From assembly GCA_044351795.1 (NCBI GenBank), contig JBILFA010000001.1, forward strand, positions 28,094-92,093: a DNA stretch of 64,000 nucleotides, given 5' to 3'. The translations under genes and the position numbers were made by a program. Shown one piece after another: positions 736 to 25,035 of the stretch. The notes below the pieces were generated by a model. That model was not told the origin of the DNA, did no database searches, and saw only the letters and a program-made list of their open reading frames with translations. Within the stretch, counting starts at the first letter, position 1. Each line of letters opens with the position of its first letter. This stretch comes from Bdellovibrionota bacterium. GTDB taxonomy: Bacteria; Bdellovibrionota_C; UBA2361; OMII01.

Positions 736-744
736 GGTCAGGGC

Positions 745-10965: not shown

Positions 10966-11300
10966 GGGAGCTTTTCGCTTGGGTTTGCTGATGGATCTAT
11001 CGGGACGATTCACTACTTTGCGAACGGGAGTCGTAAGGTGCCTAAGGAGCGCTTTGAGGTGTTCTCCGACGGGCGTACTGCGGTGATTGAGAATTTTCGG
11101 GGTGTGCGGAGTTTTGGGTTTGCGGGATTAAAGAGCAAGCGCTTGTGGTCACAGCAGAAGGGGCATGCGGAGTGTGTGGGGAGGATGTTGTGATCCCTTC
11201 TTGGGAGGAGATCCGGAATGTTACGCGGGCTACTGTGTTGGCTCGGGAGGCTGTGCGGAGTGGGGTTGCGTTTCGGGTGTAGGAAGGCGGCTGTGTCGGT
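10966..11300 (+). repeat. repeat copy A1: 3'-terminal fragment of a Gfo/Idh/MocA-type oxidoreductase gene, with an internal 25-nt deletion, plus trailing hairpin
   Basis: Encodes FSLGFADGSIGTIHYFANGSRKVPKERFEVFSDGRTAVIENFRGVRSFG...GVAFRV*; near-identical to copies at 18480–18840 and 23045–23216. Lacks 'atgcgtttctgcgggcggtgcgtgg' relative to other copies. Confidence 0.8.
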
Positions 11301-11412
11301 CGCCGGGCGTTTGCAGCATCGACATACGTATGTTTTGGAACGATGTGGTTGTTCGCGAAGATGGTGCAGGTCGTAGCTCGAGTGCCCGGCGACCGGGGGA
11401 GGACGAAGGTCC

Positions 11413-12570
11413 CTACCCTTCTCCAAACAGATCGAGATACTCCCGATACAGAAACTGTCGATTCCTCGATTGTCCCGTGATCTCGCTGAGAATACCGACC
11501 TCGACGAGTTTAGCGACCAAGTCGTTTGCCGCAGGATAGGTAGTGCCGGTAAGGGTCTGCACGTGCTTCACGCTGAGGACTGGCTTCTCATACAAATGTT
11601 CTAGGATGCGGAAACCATTCGCCGCCGCACGTCCTAATCGCTCAGTGATCGCTGCTCGGTGGCTCTCGCGCAGAACTATGATGCGTCTCGCAGTTTCAGT
11701 GGCTTCGCCGCTAACCTCGGTGACCCCTGTCAGAAAGAACGCGAGCCACTCCTCCCACTCGCCGCGATCGCGAACGGCTTGCAATCGTTCGTAGTACTCG
11801 GAACGATGCCGCTTGAAGAAATGCGAGAGGTACAGAACGGGTTTGGTGAGAATCTCCTGTTCGCACAGAAGAAAGGTGATGAGCAGGCGCCCGACTCGGC
11901 CGTTTCCGTCCAGGAACGGGTGAATCGTTTCGAACTGCGCGTGCGCGAGTCCTATCTTGACCAGAAGGGGCAGCTCGTCTGCGGTATGAATGAATGTCTC
12001 CAGGGCTCCCAACAGAGCAGGAACTTCATGAGGGGGTGGAGGTACAAACGATGCCTCTCTCAGCGTGCATCCACTGGAACCAATCCAGTTTTGGCTCGCT
12101 CGAAGCTCGCCGGGGGTCAGACGCGATCCCCGAACTCCTTTCAACAGTCGGGCATGAATCTCTCGAATGAGCCGTACTGACACCGGTAGCTCAGAAAGAC
12201 GAGCTACCCCGTGATTCATGGCGTCAAAGTAGTTGATTACTTCATCCACATCACGCGGAAGGTCAGCTGATAGAACTTTTGCCTCTGCTGCGAGAAGATC
12301 CTGCAGGGAGCTCTGCGTACCTTCGATTTGGCTCGAGAGTACTGCCTCCTTTCGAACGTACATGTAGACGAATAGGTCTGGGTTCGGCAGGGTCTGAATC
12401 GAGCCATCCAGGCGGCCCAGTGCTCGGTCAGCTTGGGAGAGAAGAGCTTGGAGTTTTCCAGTTACGTGAACAGGAGGATTCGGGGGTAACTTGGTAGGCA
12501 TGAATGCTCGGTAACCCGTTGGTTGGGTTACGTATTGTCCCGCCCTGCTGGTACTGTACTCAGTGTCCAT
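11413..12570 (-). CDS. Fic/DOC family protein (putative AMPylator / toxin)
   Basis: Canonical Fic motif HPFLDGNGRVGR present (IHPFLDGNGRVGRLLITFLL); size about 385 aa. Confidence 0.85.
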   Translation of the reverse strand: MDTEYSTSRAGQYVTQPTGYRAFMPTKLPPNPPVHVTGKLQALLSQADRALGRLDGSIQTLPNPDLFVYMYVRKEAVLSSQIEGTQSSLQDLLAAEAKVLSADLPRDVDEVINYFDAMNHGVARLSELPVSVRLIREIHARLLKGVRGSRLTPGELRASQNWIGSSGCTLREASFVPPPPHEVPALLGALETFIHTADELPLLVKIGLAHAQFETIHPFLDGNGRVGRLLITFLLCEQEILTKPVLYLSHFFKRHRSEYYERLQAVRDRGEWEEWLAFFLTGVTEVSGEATETARRIIVLRESHRAAITERLGRAAANGFRILEHLYEKPVLSVKHVQTLTGTTYPAANDLVAKLVEVGILSEITGQSRNRQFLYREYLDLFGEG

Positions 12571-12684
12571 CTTTGCCTATAGCTCCGAGCCTTTAACGAC
12601 GGAGTCGGATGCCCGTTTTATTATCGCCAGACTTTAATATAGGAGGGTTTTCTATCCTTAAGCAAGGCAGGCTTTACTAAGCGA

Positions 12685-13135
12685 GGCGCTTTGAGGTGTA
12701 TTCCGACGGGCGTACTGCGGTGATTGAGAATTTTCGGGGTGTGCGGAGTTTTGGCTTCAAAGGATTGAAGAGCAAGCACTTGTGGTCGCAGCAGAAGGGG
12801 CATGCGGAGTGTGTGGATGCGTTTCTGCGGGCGGTGCGTGGGGAGGATGTTGTGATCCCTTCTTGGGAGGAGATCCGGAATGTTACGCGGGCTACTGTGT
12901 TGGCTCGGGAGGCTGTGCGGAGTGGGGTTTCGTTTCGGGTTGAATAGGGTTTTGAGGGTTCCGGCTTAAGGCGACCGACACGGTCGCCCTCCCAATGTGA
13001 TTCGGGATTGGTTGGGGGCTGGCGCGATCGGCGAGACCCGGTTCCGGCTTGAGGCGACCGGGACGGTCGCGGTCCATGCGGATTCGGGGATGGTTGAGGT
13101 CTCTGGCGCGGACGGCGGCACACCGTCCCTCCTAA
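12685..13135 (+). repeat. repeat copy S1: oxidoreductase 3'-fragment (…GVSFRVE*) plus hairpin module H1/H1'/H2
   Basis: Protein fragment EVYSDGRTAVIENFRGVRSFGFKGLKSKHLWSQQKGHAECVDAFLRAVRGEDVVIPSWEEIRNVTRATVLAREAVRSGVSFRVE. Followed by ggcgaccgacacggtcgcc (12970–12988), ggcgaccgggacggtcgc (13053–13070) and gcgcggacggcggcacaccgtcc (about 13107–13128). Confidence 0.85.
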
Positions 13136-13229
13136 GGGCACGTGGAGCGGTTGATGTTGGTGTTCACGACTACGGCTGGGACCTCGCGGCGGAAGGTCCG
13201 TGGGGTCCATCGATTTATCTTCATACTAC

Positions 13230-14147
13230 TCACAGTGAGAGGACCTTCTTCAGGTTCTCGAGCTGCCGCGCGTGCTTGCCGGGTTCCATCCTTGCGATAT
13301 TTTGAAGTTTCCACTGAATTCCAGGGAGCTGATCAATACCTGTAATGGGAATCAGATCCCATTGAGGTGCTCCAGCTTTGACGGAAACAAGAAACCTGCG
13401 CTCGTTGTCGCTCAAGTCAACTCTCAGCTTTTGAACAACCTCTGCTCGGGTGGCTTCGAGGCTTTCGTACGACACCGAGATTCGACTCATACCGACGAAC
13501 TCGCTCTGGAATATGGTGCGCATATCCAGATAGCTCGGATCGAGTAATTCGTGCATCGGCCTGCTGTGGCTTGCCAAATACAGTACGAATGCCTGCCGTA
13601 TCTGGGTTGTTATACCTTCATTTTCGAGAAGGAGCTTTGCATCGAAGAGATCTCTTGGATGTTGCCTATCGAGAACTGCACACAGTTTCCCGCCGAAGAC
13701 ATCTCCGAAGGACAGTGTGGTAACTTCCGCATATGCTGAAAATCGGGTTTGAGCTGATTCACAAAGCTCTCGTATCTCACACGGAAAAACACTTCCACGC
13801 AGTACGAAATTCGGCTCGATTTTGATGACCGCACCATTGGCCGAGAGAACGAGGCTTCCTATCGTTTTATCGAGTGGCCCTCATGCTTTTTGAACTTTAC
13901 TGTAAGGTACCGCTGCGCATATTCGGTCGGCGAGAGAAGAGAGCGCACGGCTGATACCCTCGATTGTACGCTCGCGACTCTCCAATGGAAGATACGTTAC
14001 ATCGATATCCACAGAGAGACGCGGCATTTCTCGCATGAAGAGGTTTATTGCGGTGCCGCCTTTGAGGGCAAAAACCTTCTGCTCAGCTACCAATGGCAAC
14101 ACTTGTAGTAGCAGCTCAACTTGACGCGAGTACCGCTCGTTGCTCAT
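13230..14147 (-). pseudogene. AbiEii/AbiGii-family nucleotidyltransferase toxin, disrupted by an in-frame TGA and a probable pair of frameshifts
   Basis: N-terminus KGGTAINLFMREMPRLSVDIDVTY (NTase GS…DxD motif). In-frame TGA at 13881–13883 followed by protein-like continuation GPLDKTIGSLVLSANGAVIKIEPNFVLRG. Conserved …FGDVFGGKL / AVLDRQHPRDLFDAKLLL segments lie in two frames around the A5 run at 13736–13740 and the site at about 13680. Confidence 0.6.
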
Positions 14148-14920
14148 CGGGATCCCTCATCAAAAAGGTCCGCTGGCAGTGTGAGGCGATATTTAGGGTG
14201 GAGTTTTCCGCTTTTCACTAATGTTCTATCGCCGCTGCCAAGGTCGATCTTGTCCAGATTCAATTTCTTTACCCACGGGAGTTTTAGCTCCTCGGCTAGG
14301 AGGAGAAAGAGGCGCTTTACCTTGATCGATGAGCAGCTTTCGAGAAGCTGCTGGACAAGCTTCGGACGTAGCGTCAGCAGTCCCGTCATGAGAAGGCGTG
14401 CTTCCGATAGGCTCTGATTCTTTGGCGCTGCGTGGAGCGTCTCCAGCATCGCACGTTCCCGTGAGGATACTTGGATTGAAAAGCTGCCGACGGTTTGTGA
14501 GGAGAGGCCAATGTCGTGAGGGAGTAGGTTCGTCGTCGCAAGCGTTATCGGGACACCCCAGTCGTGACGAGAGAACCAGCTGGGCAGGCGCGTTCCGGGA
14601 TCGGCGAAAAGTGCTACGTCCTCGCTGTCGAACTTGATAAAATGCGCAGCACCGTGATACGCCAAAGCGCTCTTACCCCCGAGATGAACAGGAAGCCTCG
14701 ATTGCTGCTGAAGGGCGAACAGACCGCCGCGCCAGTCAACCACATCACCAGCCTTTGCGAATGCTCCCCGACCGATGCCCACGAGCCACCCAGAGGTCCG
14801 ATAGTGATGAAGCAATACGTCGCTATAGCCGCGTTTCTTCAGAGTGGCGCTGGTAAAGACTGTCCCGCTGGGCCAGCTTAGTAAGAGCTGCTGTATTTTG
14901 CTTCGTTTTTCTGAAACCAT
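14144..14920 (-). CDS. AbiEi-family antitoxin (type IV TA), wHTH N-terminus
   Basis: 258 aa; 4-nt overlap with the abiEii start (ATGA); N-terminal region typical of AbiEi transcriptional-regulator antitoxins. Upstream AT-rich promoter carries a perfect palindrome. Confidence 0.6.
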   Translation of the reverse strand: MVSEKRSKIQQLLLSWPSGTVFTSATLKKRGYSDVLLHHYRTSGWLVGIGRGAFAKAGDVVDWRGGLFALQQQSRLPVHLGGKSALAYHGAAHFIKFDSEDVALFADPGTRLPSWFSRHDWGVPITLATTNLLPHDIGLSSQTVGSFSIQVSSRERAMLETLHAAPKNQSLSEARLLMTGLLTLRPKLVQQLLESCSSIKVKRLFLLLAEELKLPWVKKLNLDKIDLGSGDRTLVKSGKLHPKYRLTLPADLFDEGSR

Positions 14921-14971
14921 ACTTAATAAAGTAGCATATTTTCGTAGGACTACACTGTGATTTTATATTCA

Positions 14972-14994
14972 TTGCTTAAATTGAGCTTAAGCAA
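14972..14994. promoter_or_regulatory. candidate operator palindrome TTGCTTAA-N7-TTAAGCAA in the AT-rich abiEi upstream region
   Basis: Perfect 8-bp inverted repeat read directly in an unusually AT-rich about 200-bp stretch (14921–15120), 50–75 bp upstream of the abiEi start; AbiEi antitoxins are known to autoregulate via inverted repeats. Confidence 0.4.
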
Positions 14995-15189
14995 TATGTA
15001 TACATCTACTGCAACTGCCACTAATACTAAGCTAATCTAAGTAGTTACAATATATATGGCGATCGCTTATAGCTTTTCGAGCTAGGAATGCTAGGCGGGC
15101 TCATGTGCCGGGGCGCTACGAGTCTAACTACGAGAAGAAGGGGCTCGATTATCCGATCGGTTTCGTGCGCTGGACGGAGCAGCGCAATT

Positions 15190-15600
15190 TCGAAGCTGTG
15201 CTTTTGAGATGCATTCCGACGGGCGCACTGCGGTGATTGAGAATTTTCGGGGTGTGCGGAGTTTTGGGTTCAAAGAATTGAAGAGCAAGCGCTTGTGGTC
15301 GCAGCAGAAGGGGCATGCGGAGTGTGTGGAGGCGTTTCTGCGGGCGGTGCGTGGGGAGGATGTTGTTATTCCTTCGTGGGAGGAGATCCGGAATGTTACG
15401 CGGGCTACTGTGCTTGCTCGGGAGGCTTTGCGGAGTGGGGTTTCGTTTCGGGTTGAATAGGGTTTTGGGGGTTCCGGCCGAAGGCGACCGGGACGGTCGC
15501 GGTCCATGGGGTCGGATTCCGTCATAGCTGATGTCGAGGATCCAGGCGAACGGCGACCGACACGGTCGCCCTCCCAATGTGATTCGGGATTGGTTGGGGC
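15190..15600 (+). repeat. repeat copy S2: oxidoreductase 3'-fragment (…GVSFRVE*) plus hairpins H1' (15483–15500) and H1 (15552–15570)
   Basis: Near-identical to S1/S3/S4. Hairpin order H1'-H1 is reversed relative to S1. Confidence 0.85.
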
Positions 15601-15685
15601 CGCTGAGCTTAGCATGTGCAAGATGGGGGATATGGCTATCTATCACCCGATTGCTTAATTACAAAATCGGCGGTAATCTGTAACT

Positions 15686-16852
15686 ATGATCGACAGAGTA
15701 GTTAAGATACCGAAGAAAGGGCACTTTTTTCTCTTCGGCCCGCGCCAAACTGGGAAGAGTTCACTCGTAAGGGTAGCTTTTGAAGCACATGAGACACTCT
15801 CTATTAATTTGCTGCTCAGTCAGGAATATCGGCGACTGAAGCTAGACCCCGGGCTGATCGCGAGCGATGTTGGCGGCCGTGGGCCTGAGGTGCGTTACGT
15901 CGTCATCGACGAAGTACAGCGGGTTCCCGAGCTGCTCGATGAGATACACCACCTGATCGAATCGCCGAATGCACCTTACTTTGTGTTGACGGGCTCCAGC
16001 GCCAGAAAGCTCAAGCGTGCGAAGGCAAACCTCTTGGGTGGAAGAGCGAGCACTATCGAACTCTTCCCTCTAACCTATAAAGAACTCGGGGATCGTTTCT
16101 TCCTTGATCGAGCACTAGCATGGGGAACTCTTCCAAAACTGTACCTCGAGAACGACGAAGAGGAGCGCGCTACCTTTCTGCGCTCGTACGTCGACAACTA
16201 TCTCAAGGAGGAGATTCAAGCCGAAGCTGCGGTGCGAAACCTCTCGACGTTCCTGCGCTTCCTACCGCTTGCTGCCGAGTCAAATGGACAGGAGCTGAAC
16301 TTCTCGAAGATCGCGCGCGTGTGTCTGTCGAACCACAACACGATTAAATCTTACTATCAGATCCTGGAAGATACTCTCATCGGAAGATTTCTACTTCCTC
16401 TAGCAGGCTCGACACGACAACAGCTGTCGAAGAGACCAAAGTTTTATCTTTTCGATACGGGGATCATTCGAGCAATTCTAGGGCGCGAGCGTGCCCAACT
16501 ACACCCAGGCACGTACGAGTTTGGCGCACTCTTCGAGTCCTGGATCATCAACGAGGTGTGGCGGATAAATAGCTACTACAAAAAGAACCTACAGACATTT
16601 TTTTATCGTACCGACGCCGGTGCCGAGGTCGATCTGATCATCATCGATCCCCACCGCGCGAGGTACGCGATAGAGATCAAGAGCGCGAGCGACGTCGCAC
16701 CCGCGGATCTTGGAGCGGGCTTTGAGTCCTTAAGCGCTCACGGAGAGCTAGCGAAGCGTATCTGCGTAACAACGGGACCACGACCTTATTCGTCACAGGG
16801 AGTCGATTTTATGCCGTGGCGCGATTTTTTCGAGTGGCTCGTAGCCGTGTGA
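15686..16852 (+). CDS. AAA+ ATPase with C-terminal DUF4143-like domain
   Basis: Walker A GPRQTGKSSL, Walker B VVIDEVQ; architecture typical of the widespread ATP-binding protein (DUF4143) family. Confidence 0.75.
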   Translation: MIDRVVKIPKKGHFFLFGPRQTGKSSLVRVAFEAHETLSINLLLSQEYRRLKLDPGLIASDVGGRGPEVRYVVIDEVQRVPELLDEIHHLIESPNAPYFVLTGSSARKLKRAKANLLGGRASTIELFPLTYKELGDRFFLDRALAWGTLPKLYLENDEEERATFLRSYVDNYLKEEIQAEAAVRNLSTFLRFLPLAAESNGQELNFSKIARVCLSNHNTIKSYYQILEDTLIGRFLLPLAGSTRQQLSKRPKFYLFDTGIIRAILGRERAQLHPGTYEFGALFESWIINEVWRINSYYKKNLQTFFYRTDAGAEVDLIIIDPHRARYAIEIKSASDVAPADLGAGFESLSAHGELAKRICVTTGPRPYSSQGVDFMPWRDFFEWLVAV

Positions 16853-16904
16853 CGGTGGTTACTTAGACTCTGCAAGGCAAAGACATCGGCAGGAATTCCT
16901 ATTG

Positions 16905-17085
16905 AGAACGTGTCGGGTGGGGGCGTTTTGGGGTGGCGGTTATCGTGGGGTCGGACGTGTGGCGACCGGGACGGTCGCGGTCCGTGGGGATGTAATTCCG
17001 TAATGGCTGATGTCGATGATGCACGCGAACGGCGACCGACACGGTCGCCCCTCCCAATGTTACATGTATCTGGAATGGTTATTAC
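16905..17085 (+). repeat. hairpin-only repeat unit (no coding fragment): H1' 16961–16978 and H1 17031–17049
   Basis: …gtggcgaccgggacggtcgcggtccgtgggg…gaacggcgaccgacacggtcgcccctcccaatg; same module as downstream of the S-copies. Confidence 0.75.
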
Positions 17086-17141
17086 GTTGCCATTCTAGGC
17101 ATTTAATAGTGCTATACATTATCATTAACTTCTCCTAGAAT

Positions 17142-17651
17142 GTGTTTATGGACATTATCCGAGCGATTGTAACGCAAGTCGACGAAGAGCTTTCTCGCCT
17201 CACTGACGCGCGTCGCTCAGAGGATCTGCCAGGGCTCAAGCCGCTTGAAATCAAAGTTTTAGGGCAGATGTCCTTGCTAATGGATCCGGTCGGGCAATCG
17301 CTTAATCCTGCGGCGACTCGAGATATCGACGCTCTGTTGATGGGGGATCTCCTAGCGATAAATATATTCAGAGCCGTAATAAAATCGCACAGCCTTGTGT
17401 TTGACGAGCTCAGTAAAGAAATTTGGCTACCCGAGACTGCTGTGTTTATCCCGTACCATTCATCTGCGCACCTGATTGTTTCCTATGTGGATTCGATCTC
17501 GGCGTTAACGAGCAAAGCGATAAAGGCGAAAGAGAAGAATCGATATCTGATACGAAGAGGGCTAGAGGTTTTTGGAAAGCCACTCGAGGAAGCTATCGTT
17601 CGGTACGGCGGAGATATCAACTACTTCGTAGTCGGCAAGCTGGGGCTGTAA
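17142..17651 (+). CDS. hypothetical protein (possible minimal nucleotidyltransferase-like; uncertain)
   Basis: 169 aa. Weak GQMS…(17 aa)…RDIDAL resembles an NTase Gly-Ser…DxD pattern but is unconvincing. First gene of a 2-gene operon. Confidence 0.4.
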   Translation: MFMDIIRAIVTQVDEELSRLTDARRSEDLPGLKPLEIKVLGQMSLLMDPVGQSLNPAATRDIDALLMGDLLAINIFRAVIKSHSLVFDELSKEIWLPETAVFIPYHSSAHLIVSYVDSISALTSKAIKAKEKNRYLIRRGLEVFGKPLEEAIVRYGGDINYFVVGKLGL

Positions 17652-17652
17652 T

Positions 17653-18159
17653 ATGGCCAAACGAGCACCAAAGATCTCACAGAGTCTGGAGCGCAGAGTA
17701 TTTGGCTTTTTTGTTGCCAAAGGGCTTCTTATCGCACCTCACATAGCGCCGAAGAGCTCTGTGAAGCTGCGAATCGCCGATGTTGTGAATGTTGGGCTTC
17801 ATGTTGAGCCCCGAATTATCGAGGTGCTGCCGGCAGCGCTGCTCCACTTTCCGCGCTCTTTCATCGGATATGAGGATATGCCGGAAAAGTTGAGAGAGGC
17901 GCTCGACTGTATTCGCTCTGGACGGGAGTCAGGGCCCTCTCTCGCAGGTATTCCGTACAAAGCGATACTTCGCTGGGCAAACGAACCTCTGCCTGATAAG
18001 CGAACACGGCCCGAGAGAGACCGCCGTATAACAAAGGCCTTTAGGCTGAAGCGGGCTGCTCTCGAGAAGCTGAAAACTGATGCCTCTTCGGCAGGATTAA
18101 CGGAGACTCGGTACCTGGAGGAGCTTCTACTCGGCGGGGAATTTCAGGGCGAGAATTAA
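17653..18159 (+). CDS. hypothetical protein, basic; second gene of coupled pair
   Basis: 168 aa; start ATG 1 nt after the upstream TAA (translational coupling); no recognisable motif. Confidence 0.4.
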   Translation: MAKRAPKISQSLERRVFGFFVAKGLLIAPHIAPKSSVKLRIADVVNVGLHVEPRIIEVLPAALLHFPRSFIGYEDMPEKLREALDCIRSGRESGPSLAGIPYKAILRWANEPLPDKRTRPERDRRITKAFRLKRAALEKLKTDASSAGLTETRYLEELLLGGEFQGEN

Positions 18160-18177
18160 AGCCTTCTAGAGAGGTAC

Positions 18178-18289
18178 GAGGGCAAAAACGTTCTGCTCAG
18201 CTACCAATGACAGCACTTGTAGTAGCAGCTCAACTTGACGCGAGTACCGCTCGTTACTCATCGGGATCCCTTATCAAAAGGTTCGCTGG
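18178..18289 (+). repeat. partial duplicate of the abiEi/abiEii junction (copy of about 14070–14175)
   Basis: ggcaaaaacgttctgctcagctaccaatgacagcacttgtagtagcagctcaacttgacgcgagtaccgctcgtt(a/g)ctcatcgggatccct… matches 14070–14170 with a few mismatches, fused directly to repeat A2. Confidence 0.75.
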
Positions 18290-18870
18290 TGGAGCTGGAT
18301 GGGCCAGTCTCGATGGTAATGACGGTCACTGCTGGGCGGCTTCCGGCGAATAGTTGGATCATGGATGAGGCTGAAGGTGGTGGGCGAGTTATTAGTGAGG
18401 TGTGCCACTTTATCGATCTGATGGTGGCTGTGTCGGGATCTTTGGTTAGTTCGATCTCGGGGTTGGGATTACGGGAGAGTGGACGGGAGTTGCAATCGGC
18501 GAGCTTTTCGCTTGGGTTTTCAGATGGATCTATCGGGACGATTCACTACTTTGCGAATGGAAGTCGCAAGGTGCCTAAGGAGCGCTTTGAGGTGTTCTCG
18601 GATGGGCGTACTGCGGTGATTGAGAATTTTCGGGCTGTGCAGAGTTTTGGGTTCAAGGGCTTAAAGAGCAAGCGCTTGTGGTCGCAGCAGAAGGGGCATG
18701 CGGTGTGTATGGATGCGTTTCTGCGGGCGGTGCGGGGGGAGGATGTTGTTATTCCTTCGTGGGAGGAGATCCGGAATGTTACGCGGGCTACTGTGCTTGC
18801 TCGGGAGGCTTTGCGGAGTGGGGTGGCGTTTCGGGTGTAGGAAGGCGGCTGTATCGGTCGCCGTTCGTTC
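18290..18870 (+). repeat. repeat copy A2 (longest): about 180-aa C-terminal portion of the Gfo/Idh/MocA-type oxidoreductase (…GVAFRV*) plus trailing hairpin
   Basis: VELDGPVSMVMTVTAGRLP…DEAEGGGRVISEVCHFIDLM…FSLGFSDGSIGTIHYFANGSRKVPKERFEVFSDGRTAVIENF…EEIRNVTRATVLAREALRSGVAFRV*; followed by gaaggcggctgtatcggtcgcc. Confidence 0.8.
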
Positions 18871-18902
18871 GACCCCACCCCTGCGCCATCTTCGCAGTTG
18901 CA

Positions 18903-18950
18903 GTCGGCTAGCTTTTCGCTTGGGTTTGCTGATGGATCTATCGAGGCTCT
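18903..18950 (+). repeat. mini-fragment of the same oxidoreductase repeat (…LQSASFSLGFADGSI…)
   Basis: agttgcagtcggctagcttttcgcttgggtttgctgatggatctatcga matches 18507–18552 and 10966–11000. Confidence 0.6.
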
Positions 18951-19016
18951 TCCCCCTGCCGGATCACCGAGGAATTGCATTGACGCTGACGCCGTCCGGC
19001 TATACCATGGATAACT

Positions 19017-20231
19017 ATGGATTGGCCAAGTATATGGATACAAAGAGATTTTGAAGGTCTCTTAGAGTCTGCCTCGTCTCTGGGGCCCTTCTCGGTGCTG
19101 CTCCTACTTGGCCCGAGACAGGTAGGGAAAAGCTCGCTTCTCAACCGGTGCACGCCACTCGGCACCCAGAAAGTGAATCTCGATGATTTGGACGTCCGCA
19201 CTCGAGCGAATCAAGATCCTGCGTTGTTCGGCCGGGAGCTGGAGGTTCCGCTCCTCATCGATGAAATACAGTATGCGCCTGCTCTGTTGAGTCAGGTCAA
19301 AATACTTGCTGACCGCTTCCCGCGAGAGCTCAAGATCTTTCTCACTGGCTCGCAGAGTTTCGAGGTGATGCCTGGTGTCCGCGAAAGCCTCGCGGGTCGG
19401 GTTGCGATTCTCAATCTTTTCGGACTCTCGCTATCCGAGAAGGGGCTATCTGACGAGACTTCGCCCATCGAGTTTTTCAAGGAGTTTTTCATCGGAACAT
19501 TTCCAGCACTCCGTACCAGTGAGAATCCTGTCTGGACGCGCTACATGAGCAGTTACGTGCAGACCTACGTTCAAAGAGATGTCGGTGAACTGCTGGGTAT
19601 CCAAAAGCGCAGAGAGTTCGAACTCTTCTTGAAAGCGTGCGCACTGCGGACTGGCCAGCTGATTAACTATGAAGAATTGGCGCGGGATTCGTCAGTATCG
19701 GCAGCCACTGCTAAAGAATGGCTATCGATCTTGGAAGACAGCTTCCTTATTCGGCTCGTGCATCCTCATTTCAACAATCGCACCAAACGATTGATAAAGA
19801 CACCGAAGCTTTACTTCCTGGACACTGGCCTGTGTGCCTATCTCGCAGGATGGCGTGATAGTGAGCAGATTCGTGTCGGGCCGTGGGCTGGAGCGTTTTT
19901 TGAGACTGCAGTTTTCGGTGAGCTAGTCAGATACTTTTCGCACCGGGGCCTCGATTATCAGATTCACTTCTGGCGAGACAAGGACGGTAATGAAGTTGAC
20001 TTTCTAGTAGAAACGGGGGGAAGAATCTACCCAATCGAGGTCAAGCTCGGCACCCCTAATCCACGCGATCTTTGCTCTCTCGAGAGACTACAAGTTCCGG
20101 GTATCGAAGACGGTACTGTCGTCTCTATGGCTATGAGGGCAGCTGAAGGTGGGAGGAGAGCGCATGTCAAGGATCGATGGGTAGCGGCTGGTGTCAGAAT
20201 CGATAGAGTATTCGGACGTGCTGCAGTCTGA
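19017..20231 (+). CDS. AAA+ ATPase with DUF4143-like domain (paralogue of 15686–16852)
   Basis: Walker A GPRQVGKSSLL, Walker B LLIDEIQ; same architecture as 15686–16852. Confidence 0.75.
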   Translation: MDWPSIWIQRDFEGLLESASSLGPFSVLLLLGPRQVGKSSLLNRCTPLGTQKVNLDDLDVRTRANQDPALFGRELEVPLLIDEIQYAPALLSQVKILADRFPRELKIFLTGSQSFEVMPGVRESLAGRVAILNLFGLSLSEKGLSDETSPIEFFKEFFIGTFPALRTSENPVWTRYMSSYVQTYVQRDVGELLGIQKRREFELFLKACALRTGQLINYEELARDSSVSAATAKEWLSILEDSFLIRLVHPHFNNRTKRLIKTPKLYFLDTGLCAYLAGWRDSEQIRVGPWAGAFFETAVFGELVRYFSHRGLDYQIHFWRDKDGNEVDFLVETGGRIYPIEVKLGTPNPRDLCSLERLQVPGIEDGTVVSMAMRAAEGGRRAHVKDRWVAAGVRIDRVFGRAAV

Positions 20232-20257
20232 GGCTGTGGTGGCTTCATAGCGTTCTC

Positions 20258-20600
20258 TGACGGGCGCACTGCGGTGATTGAAAATTTTCGGGGTGTGCGG
20301 AGTTTTGGGTTTAGGTGTGTGAAGAGCACACGGCTGTGGTCGCAGCGAAGGGGCATGCGGAGTGTATCGATGCGTTTCTGCCGGCGGTGCGGGGGGAGGA
20401 TGTTGTGATCCTTTCTTGGGAGAAGATCCGGAATGTTACGCGGGCTACTGTGCTTGCTCGGGAGGCTGTGCGGAGTGGGGTTTCGTTTCGGGTTGAGTAG
20501 GGTTTTGGGGGTTCCGGCTTTAGGCGACCGGGACGGTCGCGGTCCATGGGGTTGTGATTCCGTAATAGCTTATGTCGATGATGCAGGCGCACGGCGGGGG
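20258..20600 (+). repeat. repeat copy S3: oxidoreductase 3'-fragment (…GVSFRVE*) plus H1' (20523–20540) and a degenerate second hairpin
   Basis: Starts 27 nt after the ATPase stop. Several substitutions (e.g. …VVAAKGHAECIDAFLPAVRGEDVVILSWEKIRNV…) suggest an older or decaying copy. Confidence 0.8.
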
Positions 20601-20671
20601 AATACATTCGAGTGGATTCGTTCATCAAAAGACGACAACATGTAATTAGCTGTTTATTTAATGATGCTTGT

Positions 20672-20965
20672 ATGATCGACTTAAACGACATTCACTCTCT
20701 CTCTGATTTTCAGCGGAACGCTAAGGACCACATCGAGCGCTTGAAGAAAACCGGAAAGCCTGAGGTCTTAACCGTCAACGGGAGGGCAGAAGTAATTGTC
20801 CAAGACGCCCAATCGTACCAAGCGCTCATAGAAACGATCGAGCGTCTCGAAACCCTCGCTGGTCTCCGACTTGGGCTTCAGGAGGTCGAGCAAGGCAAGA
20901 CCGCATCGGCTCAAGATGTCTTTACTCGCATGCGCACTAAGCACAAGATTCCCAAGCGCGCATGA
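20672..20965 (+). CDS. Phd/YefM-family type II antitoxin
   Basis: MIDLNDIHSLSDFQRNAKDHIERLKKTGKPEVLTVNGRAEVIVQDAQSYQALIETIE… matches the Phd/YefM fold pattern. Start probably at the internal ATG 20672 rather than 20612. Stop overlaps the next ORF's ATG (ATGA). Confidence 0.7.
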   Translation: MIDLNDIHSLSDFQRNAKDHIERLKKTGKPEVLTVNGRAEVIVQDAQSYQALIETIERLETLAGLRLGLQEVEQGKTASAQDVFTRMRTKHKIPKRA

Positions 20966-21066
20966 TCTTCAAAGTACAGATTACCCAGCAGGCCGAAGCC
21001 GAATTAAATGAAGCCTACGAATGGATCGCCAACCAGTCGCTAGAACAGGCAGTGGTCTGGTTCAAG
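20962..21066 (+). pseudogene. RelE/ParE-family toxin, N-terminal about 35 aa only; truncated by insertion of repeat copy S4
   Basis: MIFKVQITQQAEAELNEAYEWIANQSLEQAVVWF is a typical ParE N-terminus. Reading frame then runs directly into the repeat (KGLKSKRLWSQQKGH…GVSFRVE*). Confidence 0.65.
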
Positions 21067-21320
21067 GGTTTAAAGAGCAAGCGCTTGTGGTCGCAGCAGA
21101 AGGGGCATGCGGAGTGTATGGATGCGTTTCTGCGGGCTGTGCGGGGGGAGGACGTTGTTATTCCTTCGTGGGAGGAGACCCGGAATGTTACGCGGGCTAC
21201 TGTGTTGGTTCGCGAGGCTGTGCGGAGTGGGGTTTCGTTTCGGGTTGAGTAGGGTTTTGGGGGTTCCGGCCTTAGGCGATCGGGACGGTCGCCGTCCGTA
21301 GGGATGTTATTCCGTAATGG
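21064..21320 (+). repeat. repeat copy S4 (short, begins at …KGLKSKRLWSQQ) plus hairpin ggcgatcgggacggtcgcc (21275–21292)
   Basis: Direct sequence identity to the other S copies; 5' boundary lies inside the parE coding sequence. Confidence 0.8.
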
Positions 21321-21371
21321 CTGAGGTCTATGAGGTACGCGCACGGGAAACGTGAGGATTGCTCTGGCGAT

Positions 21372-22652
21372 TTACTCTGTAGCATGAGCCACTCTAAATG
21401 CCGGGGCCATTCGGGCTTGCTCACTCTTGCCGATCTTTATCCCCTTTGCCTCAATCGGCCATGCTTTGACTGCCTTTATGACTCGGTTGATTGTCGCCTT
21501 GGCTTGTTTCGCATTCAACCGAAAGAAAGGTGCAACCTCTAACGCGAGGTCCAGTGACTGTGCGTTGTCGGTCTCGGATATATTAAGTAGTAGTCCATCT
21601 CCTAGGGGATTTGGGTTTACGTCGTACATGGGAGAGAGCGCCCACCCTTGCGGAGTAAGGAGGAATCCGTGATTACGCAGATGATCGTCTACGTTGGAAA
21701 CACATATCGAGAAAACGATTCGAGTCCACAGCTCATGCAGGTCTCTTTGAGGGCAAGCTCCGCTTCGAACAATAAGCTCTGCAAGCTCTAGATAGCTTGC
21801 GCCATCTGAACCGCTGTCGCCATCATTTCGCTGAAGAAGGGTCATGGCAGAAGCAAAATGAATTCTCGAGCGCCGAGCACCTCGATCAAATCGCTGCGTA
21901 AGAAAGGTATGGTGATCAGAGGCCAGCGTCCTCAAGCGCACGTTTGCCACATCTAGCCCGGCTTTTTTAGCAAGGGTGTGAGCCAGGTACTCCCATGCTC
22001 CGACATCATAGGTGTCACCTTTGCTGGGAAATTTCGCAATCCACAGAGCACCTTTAGGATCAATCACACTTGCCTTGGGTCTCGCACCTCCAAGAGAAGC
22101 CCCTGGAGCCATGAGCATAGAGAGCCATTTCTTGTAGCCAGGCTTGGTTTCAGCTCCGCTTTTCTCTAGCTGTAGGCTTGCGTGCTCTAGCTCGCGAAGC
22201 GATGTCCAGGGTGGTGCTGCGTAGGCATGATCGTCATCGAGGAAGGGGCCATCGGCGCTTGTCTTGAATCGTAAGCCTCCCATGCGGTGACCATCGTAGA
22301 CCCCCAGGAGGTAGTCAGACTCTCGAAGTGGCACAACTGCCCTACCCTCCTCTCGAGCTCGTTGGGCTTCCCGGCGGTCCATGAGTACTCGGCCCCATCG
22401 GTCCGGGCTGGAATCCAGGAAGAGGTTGAAGCTACCTGCTCCTTCTGGGGCGTATTGAACTCCGGTATAGAGAGCAAGCGAGGGATCCAGGTTTTGAGCG
22501 TTCGGAGATTGCAACCACTCCTTGTCGTACTCAAATGCAAAGATCTCTCTACCCCTTCCAGGAGAGGCGTACAGAGTACCGAGCCTCTGCGGGTTCTCCA
22601 TACCGATCCAGTCGGCCCACACCTCGATGCGCTTTCTCTCTCCCTTTCGCAT
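21372..22652 (-). CDS. hipA: HipA-family serine/threonine kinase toxin
   Basis: About 426 aa; HipA N-terminal coupling domain plus C-terminal kinase-like region (GGARPKASV…WIAKFPS, DDHLRNHGFLL with catalytic D-x-H-x-x-N). Confidence 0.85.
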   Translation of the reverse strand: MRKGERKRIEVWADWIGMENPQRLGTLYASPGRGREIFAFEYDKEWLQSPNAQNLDPSLALYTGVQYAPEGAGSFNLFLDSSPDRWGRVLMDRREAQRAREEGRAVVPLRESDYLLGVYDGHRMGGLRFKTSADGPFLDDDHAYAAPPWTSLRELEHASLQLEKSGAETKPGYKKWLSMLMAPGASLGGARPKASVIDPKGALWIAKFPSKGDTYDVGAWEYLAHTLAKKAGLDVANVRLRTLASDHHTFLTQRFDRGARRSRIHFASAMTLLQRNDGDSGSDGASYLELAELIVRSGACPQRDLHELWTRIVFSICVSNVDDHLRNHGFLLTPQGWALSPMYDVNPNPLGDGLLLNISETDNAQSLDLALEVAPFFRLNAKQAKATINRVIKAVKAWPIEAKGIKIGKSEQARMAPAFRVAHATE

Positions 22653-22660
22653 GGTGTGCT

Positions 22661-22981
22661 CTACGTGCGCCTCATTTTGGGCGCACGCTCCTTTGGTTTG
22701 AGCTCAGAGTCTTGCAGCTTTCGCCCCAACACATCATCCCTTCCCAAGTGAGCAAGGTCCTCCTGGAGCCCCAAGGCGGCAAGAACATTGACGTAGGCAC
22801 CCATGGCTACGCTCCCATCGCCACGCTCGATGGAGCGTAGGGTCGGAAGAGATATGTCCGCTCGCTCCGCTACGATTTGGCTTGAGAAGCGCCGTCGTAG
22901 CCTAGCTAGCCTTAGGTTCTCTCCCACTTGGCGTAGAAGGCGCTGTGCCGAGGGTAGAATGACAGGTGTACGCTTGGCCAT
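22661..22981 (-). CDS. hipB: XRE-family HTH regulator (HipB-like antitoxin)
   Basis: Cro/C1-type HTH (LRLARLRRRFSSQIVAERADISLPTLRSIERGD) immediately upstream of hipA, 9-nt spacer. Real start probably MAKRT (22981). Confidence 0.7.
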   Translation of the reverse strand: MAKRTPVILPSAQRLLRQVGENLRLARLRRRFSSQIVAERADISLPTLRSIERGDGSVAMGAYVNVLAALGLQEDLAHLGRDDVLGRKLQDSELKPKERAPKMRRT

Positions 22982-23044
22982 AACAGCAAATATAATTACC
23001 AATAAAATGCTTTATTGCAACTTTATTTTCACCTATTTTAAGAG

Positions 23045-23400
23045 CACGTGCGTGTGGTCGCAGCAAAAGGGGCATGCGGAGTGTATCGATGCGTTTCTGC
23101 GGGCGGTGCGGGGAGAGGATGTTGTGCTCCCTTCGTGGGAGGAGATCCGGAATGTTACGCGGGCTACTGTGTTGGCTCGGGAGGCTGTTCGCAGTGGGGT
23201 TGCGTTTCGGGTGTAGGAAGGCGGCTGTGTCGGTCGCCGTTTGTTGGACCCCACCTCTGAGCCACCTTCGCAATCGACATGATCGTCAAATGCAGGCGTA
23301 TGTCGATGGTGCCAACGCACGGCGACCGACAGGGTCGCCCTCCCCGGGGATTCGGGGAGGGTTGAAGGCTCTGGCGCGGACGGCAGCACGCCGTCCCTCC
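23045..23400 (+). repeat. repeat copy A3: oxidoreductase 3'-fragment (…GVAFRV*) plus H1 (23320–23338), a GGGGAGGG-type stem (23337–23364) and H2 (23373–23396)
   Basis: …WSQQKGHAECIDAFLRAVRGEDVVLPSWEEIRNVTRATVLAREAVRSGVAFRV*; ggcgaccgacagggtcgcc; ccctccccggggattcggggaggg; gcgcggacggcagcacgccgtccc. Confidence 0.8.
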
Positions 23401-23422
23401 TGGGCCATCGGCGTTTGCGATT

Positions 23423-24110
23423 TCAGCGAGCTAATGAACAAAACGTCTGAATTTGAGCAAATATCTTTTCTGCTCTCACCCGTTCGGACCGATGTAGGCA
23501 TCCATACACTGCATCTATGAAATCCTGGTCTTGCAATAGGACGCTGAATTGATTGCGAAGGAACCCTCTCACTTCCCTATCGGCCGTTACCAGCTTATCG
23601 ACGAAATTACTACAGCCGTCGATTACCAATACTATATCTTCAATATCGCTGGAGCCGCGGTAATCGTTCTGGCCCCGCGAATGAAAGGCCTCAAGCTTGG
23701 TCGCGATGAAACATGCAAGAGATAGTATCTTTATCTTGGTACCGGAGGGCAGCGAATACTCCTGACACTCTTGATATCCCTTGTCATACCATCTGTTCGA
23801 AAAACCAAGTATGTCTTCCGCCAAGGGCATGACATCAACGGTTATGTTTTTATAAATCCATCGGCAGATCGGGGCTCCAACCCTGGAATCATTTGCAAAG
23901 CCTTTTCGTCACAGCTCATAGGAGAGTTCGTCGAACTGCTTTTTGGATCCTACTTCCACGATGCAATCGACATCCTCAGTAGGGCGAGATTCAGGAGCTC
24001 CCTTACTATCGATATACAAGGAGGCAGTGGCTCCACCTACGAAAACAGCCTGACTCAACAGTTACCCGAGGCCTGCTGCTACTATCTCTAATCTTTCAAT
24101 ATTGGTGTTC
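23423..24110 (-). pseudogene. minimal nucleotidyltransferase (AbiEii/MNT-like), apparently frameshifted
   Basis: One frame gives LSQAVFVGGATASLYIDSKGAPESRPTEDVDCIVEV (GG…S…DxD NTase motif) ending in a stop just before the 135-aa ORF 23423–23830 in another frame. No single open frame spans the gene. Confidence 0.4.
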
Positions 24111-24127
24111 ATGCGATTGGGACACAG

Positions 24128-24690
24128 TCACGCTACACCGCCAAGCTCAACTCCGAACCTCTTTTCGAGTTCTCGCTTGGCAATCTTCTGCTCACGGACC
24201 CTACCTATACGTAGGGCATCGACTAATGAGAGAAGCTCGTGCAATTCTCTATCCTTGGACGCCGCGAATGGCGCGCTCGAATAGAGGGGCGTTACCGAGT
24301 GCCCCCTGATATCTCCATCAGGGAATGGCCACACGTACTGATCTTCCTTTGCGCTCACGATACCCTTTGAAAGTGGTAGTGCGGAATGAGCAGTCGCTAT
24401 ACCTCGAACCACCGGACCAAGCTCGACGGGAAAAACATACTTCAATCCATACACAAGAAATTCCAAGGCATTCCGCTTAAGCACCGCTTTCTTATCAGAG
24501 CTCAGTAGTTGGGATCTGACGAGCCGCTCGAGCCCATGCGAAATCTCTGAGGGGCTTACCCCTACATCTACCGCTAGATCAATCACTCTGGGGGTAGCCT
24601 CCAAGGTGAGTATCTTGAGCAGTATCAGGATATCTTGTGGTTTTAACGGTGAGGTTCTTCGCATAAGAGATCTTGCCTCCTCCATAACTA
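24128..24690 (-). CDS. HTH-domain protein (AbiEi-like / transcriptional-regulator antitoxin candidate)
   Basis: Putative wHTH region ILILLKILTLEATPRVIDLAVDVGVSPSEISHGLERL. 3' end 17 nt from the NTase gene. Annotated 5' end (24736) overlaps a perfect palindrome, so the real start is probably downstream (about 24650–24690). Confidence 0.45.
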
Positions 24691-24704
24691 TCATACTATG
24701 CATT

Positions 24705-24731
24705 TTGTGATTTGCAAATTGCAAATCACAA
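24705..24731. promoter_or_regulatory. perfect 27-bp palindrome TTGTGATTTGCAA-A-TTGCAAATCACAA at the 5' end of the HTH gene (candidate operator)
   Basis: Read directly: ttgtgatttgcaaattgcaaatcacaa, symmetric about AATT. Confidence 0.5.
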
Positions 24732-24837
24732 CACAAATAGTTTTAATAATTTACCCCCATCTCAGGCGACACGGGCGCTGTTACCGGATCGTATGAGGGG
24801 TAAATTGCCATGTCTTGAGATGCCCCATTGCGCCGGC

Positions 24838-24919
24838 TCACTTTTCGCTTGGGTTTGCGGATGGGTCGATTGGGAACATTCACTACTTTGCCAACGGTAG
24901 TCGTAAGGTGCCTAAGGAA
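24838..24919 (+). repeat. 3'-truncated fragment of the oxidoreductase repeat (FSLGFADGSIGNIHYFANGSRKVPKE|), interrupted by the REP/RAYT unit
   Basis: cttttcgcttgggtttgcggatgggtcgattgggaacattcactactttgccaacggtagtcgtaaggtgcctaaggaa then diverges. Confidence 0.65.
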
Positions 24920-25012
24920 GCGAGGCAAAACCCCTCCCTGCTGCGAAAGCGGATCTTGGGTTGCTCTTCAATTTTCACGACGGTGAAAAATCCTCAATGT
25001 ATCGCAGCGGGC

Positions 25013-25035
25013 AAAGTCGTGACAGTCACGACTTT
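25013..25035. repeat. REP-like hairpin AAAGTCGTGA-cag-TCACGACTTT (left flank of RAYT gene)
   Basis: Perfect 10-bp inverted repeat; related to the GGGAAAGTCGTG…CACGACTTTCCC hairpins at 25743–25771 and 26141–26168. Confidence 0.75.

What the first reader, a model, noticed from the sequence alone, without database searches (positions are those of the whole stretch)
20672..21320. ParE/RelE toxin gene truncated by a repeat copy, leaving an intact Phd/YefM antitoxin
The ORF downstream of the Phd antitoxin begins with a textbook ParE/RelE N-terminus (MIFKVQITQQAEAELNEAYEWIANQSLEQAVVWF). After about 35 aa it runs in-frame into the oxidoreductase repeat (KGLKSKRLWSQQKGHAECMDAFLRAVRGE…GVSFRVE*). The junction near 21064 is therefore a genuine insertion or recombination breakpoint inside a gene, the clearest evidence here that the repeat units move or recombine. 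It also creates an orphan antitoxin, a configuration proposed to give anti-addiction immunity against incoming homologous TA modules.
Basis: partly seen in the sequence, partly recalled or inferred. Interest (0 to 1): 0.7.

Follow-up and report, generated by a model that had tools for sequence, protein, structure and literature searches.

The report
ParE toxin gene truncated by deletion
A toxin gene of a toxin-antitoxin pair lost its last two thirds in a 539-base deletion that fused it to a neighbouring gene fragment and left the antitoxin gene intact, which is the ordinary way such modules decay.

Summary
ORF 20962-21252 (96 aa) starts with the first 34 residues of a ParE toxin. It then reads in frame into the last 62 codons of a repeated oxidoreductase 3' fragment. 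An intact Phd/YefM antitoxin gene (20672-20965) lies directly upstream.

Metagenome contigs from close relatives (99.2-99.4% identical over window 20594-21065) carry an intact 101-aa parE. A longer oxidoreductase fragment already begins 11 nt after the parE stop codon. The heptamer GGTTCAA occurs once in parE and once in that fragment. Removing the 539 bases between the two copies in silico gives the window sequence (494/498 bases). No parE 3' remnant exists anywhere in the window. The junction (21059-21065) is therefore a microhomology deletion, not an inserted repeat.

One relative has the same parE inactivated by a nonsense codon. Two other toxins in the same array also carry premature stop codons while their partner genes stay open. 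This is routine toxin-first decay, and anti-addiction is untested.

The surroundings are more interesting. They form a 14-kb array of defence and toxin-antitoxin cassettes separated by eight oxidoreductase fragments. Cassette content and order differ between strains, and no integrase is nearby. How the array is built is unresolved.

The parts
20594..20671 (+). Leader region upstream of phd. Homology to the phd-parE modules of relatives starts at 20594.
   Evidence: BLAST matches of L001, L003, L005, L073 and L078 all begin at window 20594. No sigma-70 consensus promoter was found.
20672..20965 (+). phd, an intact Phd/YefM-family antitoxin gene (97 aa)
   Evidence: PF02604 E=4.5e-10, above the cutoff. 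The protein is 100% identical to the one on contigs that carry intact parE.
20962..21065 (+). parE 5' remnant: codons 1-34 plus 2 nt
   Evidence: Identical in protein to residues 1-34 of the intact 101-aa ParE of L006 (PF05016 E=1.7e-13).
21059..21065 (.). GGTTCAA, the single surviving copy of the 7-bp microhomology at the deletion junction
   Evidence: In L006 GGTTCAA lies at 458-464 (in parE) and 997-1003 (in the downstream repeat). Deleting 465..1003 reproduces the window at 494/498 bases.
21066..21252 (+). Last 62 codons and stop codon of the Gfo/Idh/MocA-type oxidoreductase fragment (repeat copy c6), read in its native frame
   Evidence: Aligns to positions 10488-10675 of the intact 752-aa gene in L007 at 91%; alignment A1.
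21253..21344 (+). 3' flank of repeat copy c6, with hairpin GCGATCGGGACGGTCGC at 21276-21292
   Evidence: (family D4).
20962..21252 (+). Chimeric 96-aa ORF (ParE residues 1-34 followed by the oxidoreductase C-terminal 62 residues)
   Evidence: No Pfam family matches it. Found as an exact protein only on this strain's contigs.
20243..20593 (+). Repeat copy c5 with its flank, upstream of phd. It has a 1-nt deletion, so its frame is broken.
10964..24922 (.). Context: array of eight oxidoreductase fragments interleaved with defence and toxin-antitoxin cargo (SoFic, AbiE, two PDC-S01 genes, a 169/168-aa gene pair, Phd-ParE', HipBA, PDC-M21)

Best explanation
This is a decaying type II Phd-ParE toxin-antitoxin module. 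In the ancestor, still present in co-occurring strains, phd-parE was intact and a non-functional oxidoreductase 3' fragment followed it after 11 nt. One illegitimate recombination or replication-slippage event between two GGTTCAA heptamers, one in parE codons 33-35 and one in the fragment, removed 539 bp. The lost DNA comprised parE codons 35-101 and the 5' part of the fragment. By chance both heptamers were in the same codon phase, so the remnant reads through to the oxidoreductase stop codon as a 96-aa chimera. The chimera keeps only residues 1-34 of the toxin and lacks residues 35-101. The Pfam ParE domain and the match to a solved ParE structure span residues 5-94 and 10-94. I therefore infer that the chimera is non-toxic. 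Phd is left as an orphan antitoxin, and its start-stop overlap with the chimeric ORF is unchanged. Shown here: the ancestral state, the breakpoint, the microhomology, and the polarity of the change (outgroups have intact parE). Inferred: loss of toxicity, continued expression of phd, and a neutral or mildly beneficial effect of losing the toxin.
For: 1. L001, L003, L005 and L006 match window 20594-21065 at 99.2-99.4% and the match ends exactly at 21065. 2. In those contigs parE continues to 101 aa (PF05016) and is followed at once by an oxidoreductase copy that starts at gene coordinate 10169. 3. GGTTCAA occurs exactly twice in L006, at 458 and 997. Removing 539 bp gives 494/498 identity to window 20602-21099, and 532/539 when done with L005. 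4. More distant modules (93% nt identity; L073-L079, P0009-P0014) all have an intact 101-aa ParE, so the intact state is ancestral. 5. No trace of the parE 3' two thirds is present in 64 kb. 6. The same chimeric protein is recorded on contigs from two metagenome samples, one of them 100% identical in DNA, as well as in the window's source contig. 7. There are independent toxin knock-outs nearby. L005 parE has GAG->TAG at codon 39. The window's AbiEii-like gene has one premature stop and its PDC-M21B gene has two, while their partner genes stay open. 8. Other deletions exist in the same array: copy c4 lacks about 100 bp relative to L001, with the two flanking matches overlapping by about 10 bp, and c3 joins a mid-gene piece to the 3' end.
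Against: The contigs with intact parE end inside the downstream repeat. It is therefore not shown that the copy deleted into is the one that now lies next to hipA. Over the 67 nt that can be compared after the junction, c6 matches the relatives' copy no better than c4 does (64/67 each). The deletion could thus have been larger than 539 bp if further cassettes lay between. A 7-bp repeat is short and occurs twice by chance in 2 of 200 shuffles of L006, so its role in the mechanism is an inference from its position. Loss of toxicity and expression of phd were not tested, and no consensus promoter was found.
Confidence: 0.9

Rival explanations
1. One reading: a mobile repeat unit (oxidoreductase 3' end plus hairpin) inserted or transposed into parE and split it.
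For: The repeat is present in many copies with variable cargo between them. Cassette content and order differ between strains, so something does rearrange this region.
Against: No parE 3' half lies downstream of the copy or anywhere else in the window. There is no target duplication. The intact allele already has a repeat copy directly after parE. A single deletion reproduces the sequence.
Confidence: 0.03
2. The junction is a by-product of the process that shuffles cassettes: imprecise excision or recombination between repeat copies, homologous or site-specific, that removed one or more cassettes together with the parE 3' end.
For: The array is rearranged between strains. The partner copy cannot be identified unambiguously. 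A recurrent module boundary at gene coordinate 10334 hints at some non-random process.
Against: One breakpoint lies in unique parE sequence that shares only 7 bp with the repeat, which fits neither homologous nor site-specific recombination. No recombinase gene lies among the ORFs of 180 aa or more scanned up to window position 45500. The junction is at gene coordinate 10488, not at a recurrent boundary.
Confidence: 0.05
3. The orphan phd is retained by selection as an anti-addiction or anti-defence gene that neutralises incoming or paralogous ParE toxins. This concerns function and is compatible with the deletion mechanism.
For: Phd is 100% identical in protein to the Phd of intact modules circulating in the same kind of samples. 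A second phd-parE module, whose ParE is 89% identical over the first 34-37 residues, occurs on a contig of the same sample. The literature proposes this role for orphan antitoxins (PMC7192599, PMC7354431).
Against: The deletion is recent: only one synonymous difference in phd separates it from the intact alleles, so retention needs no selection. The cited papers state that many orphans are degraded toxin-antitoxin remnants and that anti-addiction by orphans is rarely demonstrated. Expression is unknown.
Confidence: 0.15
4. Assembly artefact: the chimera is a false join between parE and a repeat copy.
For: The source is a metagenome-assembled genome in a repeat-rich region.
Against: The same junction is recorded on the 128-kb source contig, on a 10.3-kb contig and, 100% identical over 2,590 bp, on a contig from another sample. 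A shared 7-mer is too short to cause a false join.
Confidence: 0.02

Closest known systems
Type II Phd/YefM-ParE (ParDE-like) toxin-antitoxin modules
   Same: The antitoxin gene comes first and its stop overlaps the toxin start. Sizes are 97 and 101 aa. PF02604 and PF05016 match the intact alleles, and the toxin matches the solved ParE-family chain 6x0a (E=3e-5).
   Different: In the window the toxin is reduced to 34 residues fused to unrelated sequence, so the module is no longer a toxin-antitoxin pair.
Orphan antitoxins and degraded toxin-antitoxin loci, as catalogued in Klebsiella pneumoniae (PMC7192599) and reviewed with the anti-addiction model (PMC7354431)
   Same: An intact antitoxin sits next to a disabled toxin in the original genomic context. 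Those papers describe this class as remnants of degraded pairs.
   Different: Here the event can be reconstructed to the base because the intact allele, a deletion allele and a nonsense allele co-occur in related strains. No functional test of anti-addiction exists for this locus.
Deletions between short direct repeats (microhomology-mediated illegitimate recombination or replication slippage). That this is a common source of spontaneous bacterial deletions is established knowledge recalled by me, not checked in a paper here.
   Same: Two 7-bp direct repeats in the ancestor, one copy left at the junction, and everything between them lost.
   Different: Nothing unusual. The in-frame read-through is a one-in-three coincidence.
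Chromosomal integron cassette arrays, which also stockpile toxin-antitoxin and phage-defence cassettes (bioRxiv 10.1101/2024.07.02.601719; PMC12614218). This is a comparison for the surrounding array, not for the junction.
   Same: A string of small, mostly single-function defence or toxin-antitoxin cassettes separated by a repeated module that contains a hairpin. Cassette content and order differ between strains.
   Different: No integrase was found among the scanned ORFs up to window position 45500. The repeat is a 170-530-bp fragment of a protein-coding gene, not a 60-140-bp attC site. Cargo lies in both orientations. Module boundaries vary.
Tandem accretion of integrative elements at the 3' end of a gene (IME/CIME-type arrays; PMC5704250). 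This is a comparison for the array.
   Same: Repeated copies of the 3' end of a target gene flank successive inserts downstream of the intact gene in relatives (L073, L080).
   Different: Units are 0.75-3.4 kb and carry no integrase, relaxase or conserved arm sequence. The identity blocks are hundreds of bases long and of unequal length.

Membership tests
ParE/RelE toxin (PF05016) | Significant match to the ParE_toxin profile across the domain | tested here: not met
   The window's 96-aa ORF matches no Pfam family. Its 34-aa N-terminus alone scores E=0.077, 14 bits, below the 23-bit cutoff. The intact allele in L006 does meet it: E=1.7e-13 over residues 5-94.
ParE/RelE toxin (PF05016) | Complete toxin domain present | tested here: not met
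   Only residues 1-34 of 101 remain. The alignment to PDB 6x0a spans residues 10-94 of the intact protein. That residues 35-101 hold the second helix and the beta-sheet of the ParE fold is my recollection, not computed here.
ParE/RelE toxin (PF05016) | Gene lies directly downstream of, and is translationally coupled to, a cognate antitoxin gene | tested here: met
   ATGA overlap of the phd stop and the parE start at 20962-20965.
Phd/YefM antitoxin (PF02604) | Profile match above the curated cutoff, small size, position upstream of the toxin | tested here: met
   E=4.5e-10, 39.6 bits against a 29.8 cutoff, 97 aa. It is paired with intact ParE in relatives.
Functional toxin-antitoxin pair (growth arrest relieved by the antitoxin) | Toxicity of the toxin and its neutralisation by the antitoxin | not testable with these tools
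   Requires expression assays.
Anti-addiction orphan antitoxin | The antitoxin is expressed and neutralises a homologous toxin arriving on a mobile element | not testable with these tools
   Only the precondition is met: an intact ORF identical to the Phd of circulating intact modules. No consensus promoter was found.
Microhomology-mediated deletion | Short direct repeats at both ends of the lost segment in the ancestral allele and one copy at the junction | tested here: met
   GGTTCAA at L006 458 and 997, and once at window 21059-21065. The reconstruction matches at 494/498 bases.
Insertion of a mobile repeat into parE | Both halves of the target gene flank the insert, usually with a target-site duplication | tested here: not met
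   No parE 3' half by tblastn or blastn anywhere in the window.
Integron (for the array) | intI tyrosine recombinase adjacent to the array | tested here: not met
   No Phage_integrase hit among the ORFs of 180 aa or more scanned up to window position 45500. The only recombinase-like gene is a REP-associated tyrosine transposase (Y1) at 25026-25763.
Integron (for the array) | attC sites of 60-140 nt with the R''-L''/L'-R' structure at cassette ends | not tested
   No attC model was available. Rfam found nothing in 10000-27000. The repeat is a gene fragment followed by an 8-bp-stem hairpin.

The most novel reading that the evidence does not exclude
The junction itself is ordinary. The array it sits in could be a previously undescribed, recombinase-independent cassette system. 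In a clade of freshwater Bdellovibrionota, defence and toxin-antitoxin genes would be gained, lost and reordered downstream of a polysaccharide-locus oxidoreductase through a 350-530-bp homology module (gene 3' end plus hairpins) that travels with each cassette. This would be a homology-driven analogue of an integron. Three observations hint at it: a recurrent module boundary at gene coordinate 10334 in unrelated contexts, cassette order that differs between strains, and differences among copies that fall mainly in third codon positions, implying each copy diverged inside a functional gene before it joined the array.
Probability: 0.2. Interest if true: 0.6.

Novelty: new member of a known kind. 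Interest (0 to 1): 0.25.

Why it matters
For the finding as given, very little. It is a clean, base-resolved example of how toxin-antitoxin modules die toxin-first, with three alleles (intact, deleted, nonsense) co-existing in related strains. It could serve as a small natural experiment on whether orphan antitoxins are kept. It also corrects the inference that this junction shows repeat mobility.

The broader region may matter more. It is a compact defence island (SoFic, AbiE, two PDC-S01 genes, HipBA, PDC-M21, Phd-ParE) built from cassettes separated by fragments of one gene, with no integrase in sight, in an uncultured predatory-bacteria phylum. Understanding how it is assembled could reveal a homology-based route for stockpiling defence genes.

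Tried and rejected
I reached it instead through a homology search and cluster listing.

2. A metagenome scan with a 47-nt parE pattern found nothing. The second scan, with a 20-nt repeat pattern, found one contig (L080/L081). It was useful for the array but not for counting parE alleles.

3. I tried to find what lies beyond the long repeat copy in intact-parE strains through HipA (exact look-up, homology search, cluster members). Only the window's own strain or short or unrelated contigs came back, so the adjacency of the deleted copy to hipA stays unproven.

4. I tried to identify the partner copy from post-junction sequence. c6 and c4 match equally (64/67), which is uninformative.

5. Integron hypothesis for the array: no integrase, no Rfam hit, mixed cargo orientation. 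Rejected as a membership claim.

6. REP/RAYT hypothesis for the array hairpins: all 9 GCGACCGNNNCGGTCGC sites lie on one strand and only inside the array. The RAYT gene at 25026-25763 is flanked by a different hairpin (family D9). No link was shown.

7. Inverted repeats pairing the two ends of the module: only chance-level 8-mers.

8. Recoding as an explanation for the in-frame stops in the other toxins: the stops are a mix of TGA and TAA, and all three stop codons terminate long ORFs in the window. Rejected.

9. The same gene in 60 other genomes showed no comparable 3'-fragment arrays.

Full report
**What is at the coordinates**

ORF 20672-20965 (+) encodes a 97-aa protein that matches Pfam PhdYeFM_antitox (E=4.5e-10, above the curated cutoff). 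Its stop overlaps the ATG of ORF 20962-21252 (+, 96 aa) in an ATGA. The 96-aa product matches no Pfam family.

The second half of that ORF belongs to a repeat that occurs eight times between 10964 and 24922. tblastn and comparison with an intact gene show what the repeat is. It is the 3' end of a 752-aa two-domain (zinc-dehydrogenase-like plus Gfo/Idh/MocA) oxidoreductase, followed by a flank with one or two GC-rich hairpins. The intact gene is L007 8420-10678, in a Bdellovibrionota metagenome-assembled genome, and the copies are 88-91% identical to it in DNA. No full-length copy of this gene exists in the window.

**The decisive comparison**

An exact-protein look-up of Phd returned metagenome contigs from other samples.

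- L001, L003 and L006 encode the identical Phd followed by a 101-aa ORF annotated PF05016 ParE_toxin. I confirmed that match at E=1.7e-13, and there is a weaker match to the solved ParE-family chain 6x0a (E=3e-5, residues 10-94).
- These contigs are 99.2-99.4% identical to window 20594-21065, and the match stops exactly at 21065.
- In them parE runs on to ...HVRHGARQHLRPEDM*. Eleven nucleotides after its stop codon a longer copy of the oxidoreductase fragment begins, at gene coordinate 10169 in L007 numbering.
- GGTTCAA occurs exactly twice in L006: at 458-464 inside parE (codons W-F-N) and at 997-1003 inside the downstream fragment (codons G-F-K).
- Deleting 465-1003 (539 bp) in silico gives a sequence that matches window 20602-21099 at 494 of 498 positions. 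The same operation on L005 matches 532 of 539.
- Both heptamers are in the same codon phase. That is why the remnant reads through in the native oxidoreductase frame to the native stop codon.
- The 3' two thirds of parE is absent from all 64 kb.

**Polarity of the change**

More distant versions of the module (93% DNA identity; L073-L079; proteins P0009-P0014) all have a 101-aa ParE. The intact state is therefore ancestral and the window carries the derived allele.

The junction is not an assembly artefact. The same chimeric protein is recorded on the 128-kb source contig, on a 10.3-kb contig and on L002. L002 comes from another sample and is 100% identical to the window over 2,590 bp.

**Conclusion on the finding**

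The junction at 21059-21065 is a deletion between 7-bp direct repeats. It removed parE codons 35-101 together with the 5' part of a repeat copy that was already there. It is not an insertion and has no target duplication. On its own it says nothing about mobility of the repeat.

They do not.

One caveat remains. The contigs with intact parE end inside the downstream copy. I could not show that this copy is the one now next to hipA. The 67 nt available after the junction do not discriminate between copies. The deletion is therefore at least 539 bp and could have been larger.

**Biological reading**

This is toxin-first decay of a toxin-antitoxin module.

- L005, another strain, carries the same parE with GAG->TAG at codon 39. 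That is a second, independent knock-out of the toxin.
- In the window's own array the AbiEii-like toxin (13230-14147, minus strand) has an in-frame TGA at codon 89, while its AbiEi partner is intact.
- The nucleotidyltransferase-like PDC-M21B gene (23423-24112, minus strand) has TAA and TGA stops at codons 18 and 69. Its L073 orthologue is intact and its partner gene is open.
- The chimera keeps only residues 1-34 of a domain that spans residues 5-94. I infer it is non-toxic.

Phd is left as an orphan. Since the deletion, phd differs from the intact alleles by a single synonymous change (20893). Its retention therefore needs no selective explanation.

Orphan antitoxins are abundant in bacterial populations. 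The literature regards many as degraded toxin-antitoxin remnants, and anti-addiction is a proposed but rarely demonstrated role (PMC7192599, PMC7354431). The preconditions for anti-addiction hold here, because identical Phd and intact ParE modules circulate in related strains and a paralogous module occurs in the same sample. Nothing more can be said without experiments.

**The surroundings**

The region 10964-24922 is a defence and toxin-antitoxin island. In order, it contains:

- c1
- SoFic (PADLOC E=1e-122)
- c2
- AbiEi with a pseudogenised AbiEii
- c3
- PDC-S01 ATPase (AAA_14/DUF4143)
- a 169/168-aa gene pair of unknown function
- c4
- a second PDC-S01 gene
- c5
- Phd with the truncated ParE fused to c6
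- HipBA
- c7
- PDC-M21A with a pseudogenised PDC-M21B
- c8
- a REP-associated tyrosine transposase

The island lies at the edge of a polysaccharide-biosynthesis cluster.

Relatives show that this is a hotspot.

- L007 has the intact gene with only a remnant of an ATPase gene behind it.
- L073 has the intact gene, then phd-parE, a 347-bp copy, PDC-M21, a 165-bp copy, and then wzy.
- L080/L081 have the intact gene, PDC-S01, a transposase remnant, a second PDC-S01, a copy, and then the 169-aa cassette. This order differs from the window.
- The same phd-parE also occurs in an unrelated context next to a tyrosine recombinase (L078).

No integrase was found among the ORFs of 180 aa or more scanned up to window position 45500. 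Rfam finds nothing in the array.

Three further features of the array stand out.

- The 5' ends of the copies differ, and at least three were shaped by deletions: c6 as above, c4, and c3, which joins gene positions 9397-9492 directly to 10424. One boundary, gene coordinate 10334, recurs next to unrelated sequences.
- Copies cluster by genome.
- Among the in-frame copies of the window, variable sites fall 5/3/16 by codon position (p=0.0009), with pN/pS 0.15-0.47. That ratio resembles the one between functional orthologues. Most of the divergence therefore arose under coding constraint, which argues against simple duplication in place followed by neutral decay.

I could not decide how the array is built. 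The candidates are homologous recombination through the modules, an unidentified site-specific enzyme, or repeated illegitimate events.

**Verdict**

The feature is an ordinary, newly documented instance of a known kind of event, so interest is low (0.25). The array context is recorded separately as the more novel lead.

The organism assignment (Bdellovibrionota) is inferred from the nearest genomes. It was not determined directly.

Noticed in passing
window 13230-14147 (-), stop at 13881-13883: The AbiEii-like toxin gene has a single in-frame TGA at codon 89 and is otherwise open for 305 codons. Its AbiEi partner (14144-14920, PADLOC E=3e-82) is intact. This is a second toxin pseudogene in the array.
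   Followed up: partly
window 23423-24112 (-), stops at 24062-24064 and 23909-23911: The nucleotidyltransferase-like PDC-M21B gene has two in-frame stops (TAA at codon 18, TGA at codon 69). The orthologue in L073 (2979-3668) is intact at 229 aa, and the partner PDC-M21A gene (24128-24736) is open. This is a third toxin-like pseudogene.
   Followed up: partly
window 10964-24922: Eight fragments of one oxidoreductase gene separate cassettes that match known or candidate defence families (SoFic, AbiE, two PDC-S01 genes, HipBA, PDC-M21, Phd-ParE). No integrase gene was found nearby and no full-length oxidoreductase gene is in the window. Cassette content and order differ in relatives L073 and L080/L081.
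   Followed up: partly
window copies c2, c3, c4, c6, c7 (for example 12783-12941, 21088-21246): Differences among the gene-fragment copies are concentrated in third codon positions (5/3/16; p=0.0009) with pN/pS 0.15-0.47, as if each copy diverged while part of a functional gene. This is unexpected for pseudogene fragments duplicated in place.
   Followed up: partly
window 10964 (c1), 24834 (c8); L073 2438; L074 1373; L075 1861; L076 1124; L077 35 and 1437: Many copies start at the same nucleotide of the gene (L007 coordinate 10334/10335) although the sequence upstream of them is unrelated (asnB leader, cargo, parE stop). Copy c8 ends at 10420, exactly where c2 and c3 begin (10421/10424). Recurrent breakpoints hint at a non-random process.
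   Followed up: partly
window 25026-25763 (-), with repeats 25704-25771 and 26101-26168: A REP-associated tyrosine transposase (Y1_Tnp; NCBIfam REP_Tyr_transpos E=1e-16, 61 bits, below the 80-bit cutoff) is flanked by 68-nt repeats that contain the hairpin GGGAAAGTCGTGGCTGTCACGACTTTCC. A related hairpin lies at about 25013-25035. An internally deleted copy sits inside the array of L080 (10174-10683).
   Followed up: partly
window 12971-23338 (9 sites): The hairpin GCGACCGNNNCGGTCGC occurs 9 times, always on the + strand and only inside the array (expected 0.02 by chance). It is part of the repeated module rather than a genome-wide REP within this window.
   Followed up: partly
window 18286-18295; window 15107-15202; window 14064-14170 and 18178-18284: There are further scars. 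Copy c4 lacks about 100 bp relative to L001, and the two flanking matches overlap by about 10 bp. A 96-bp mid-gene piece (L007 9397-9492) abuts c3. A 107-bp piece of a more 5' part of the gene is duplicated next to the AbiE cassette (93% identity).
   Followed up: partly
L005 1221-1229 (parE codon 39): A related strain carries the same parE with a GAG->TAG nonsense mutation. This is an independent inactivation of the same toxin.
   Followed up: yes
L078 3635-6091: The same phd-parE module (93% DNA identity) lies in an unrelated context next to a 322-aa XerC/D-like tyrosine recombinase, a Gp49/HTH_37 pair and AbiE, with no oxidoreductase fragments. The module is therefore mobile between contexts.
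   Followed up: partly
window 17142-18159 (+): Two adjacent ORFs of 169 and 168 aa form a conserved cassette, also present in L001 and L081. They match nothing in Pfam, NCBIfam or PADLOC and may be an undescribed two-gene defence or toxin-antitoxin module.
   Followed up: no
L059 10615-10731 and 11465-11582: In an Omnitrophota metagenome-assembled genome, the stretch just after the homologous oxidoreductase gene is repeated 850 bp downstream (85% identity). It may be a similar duplication in a distant lineage.
   Followed up: no
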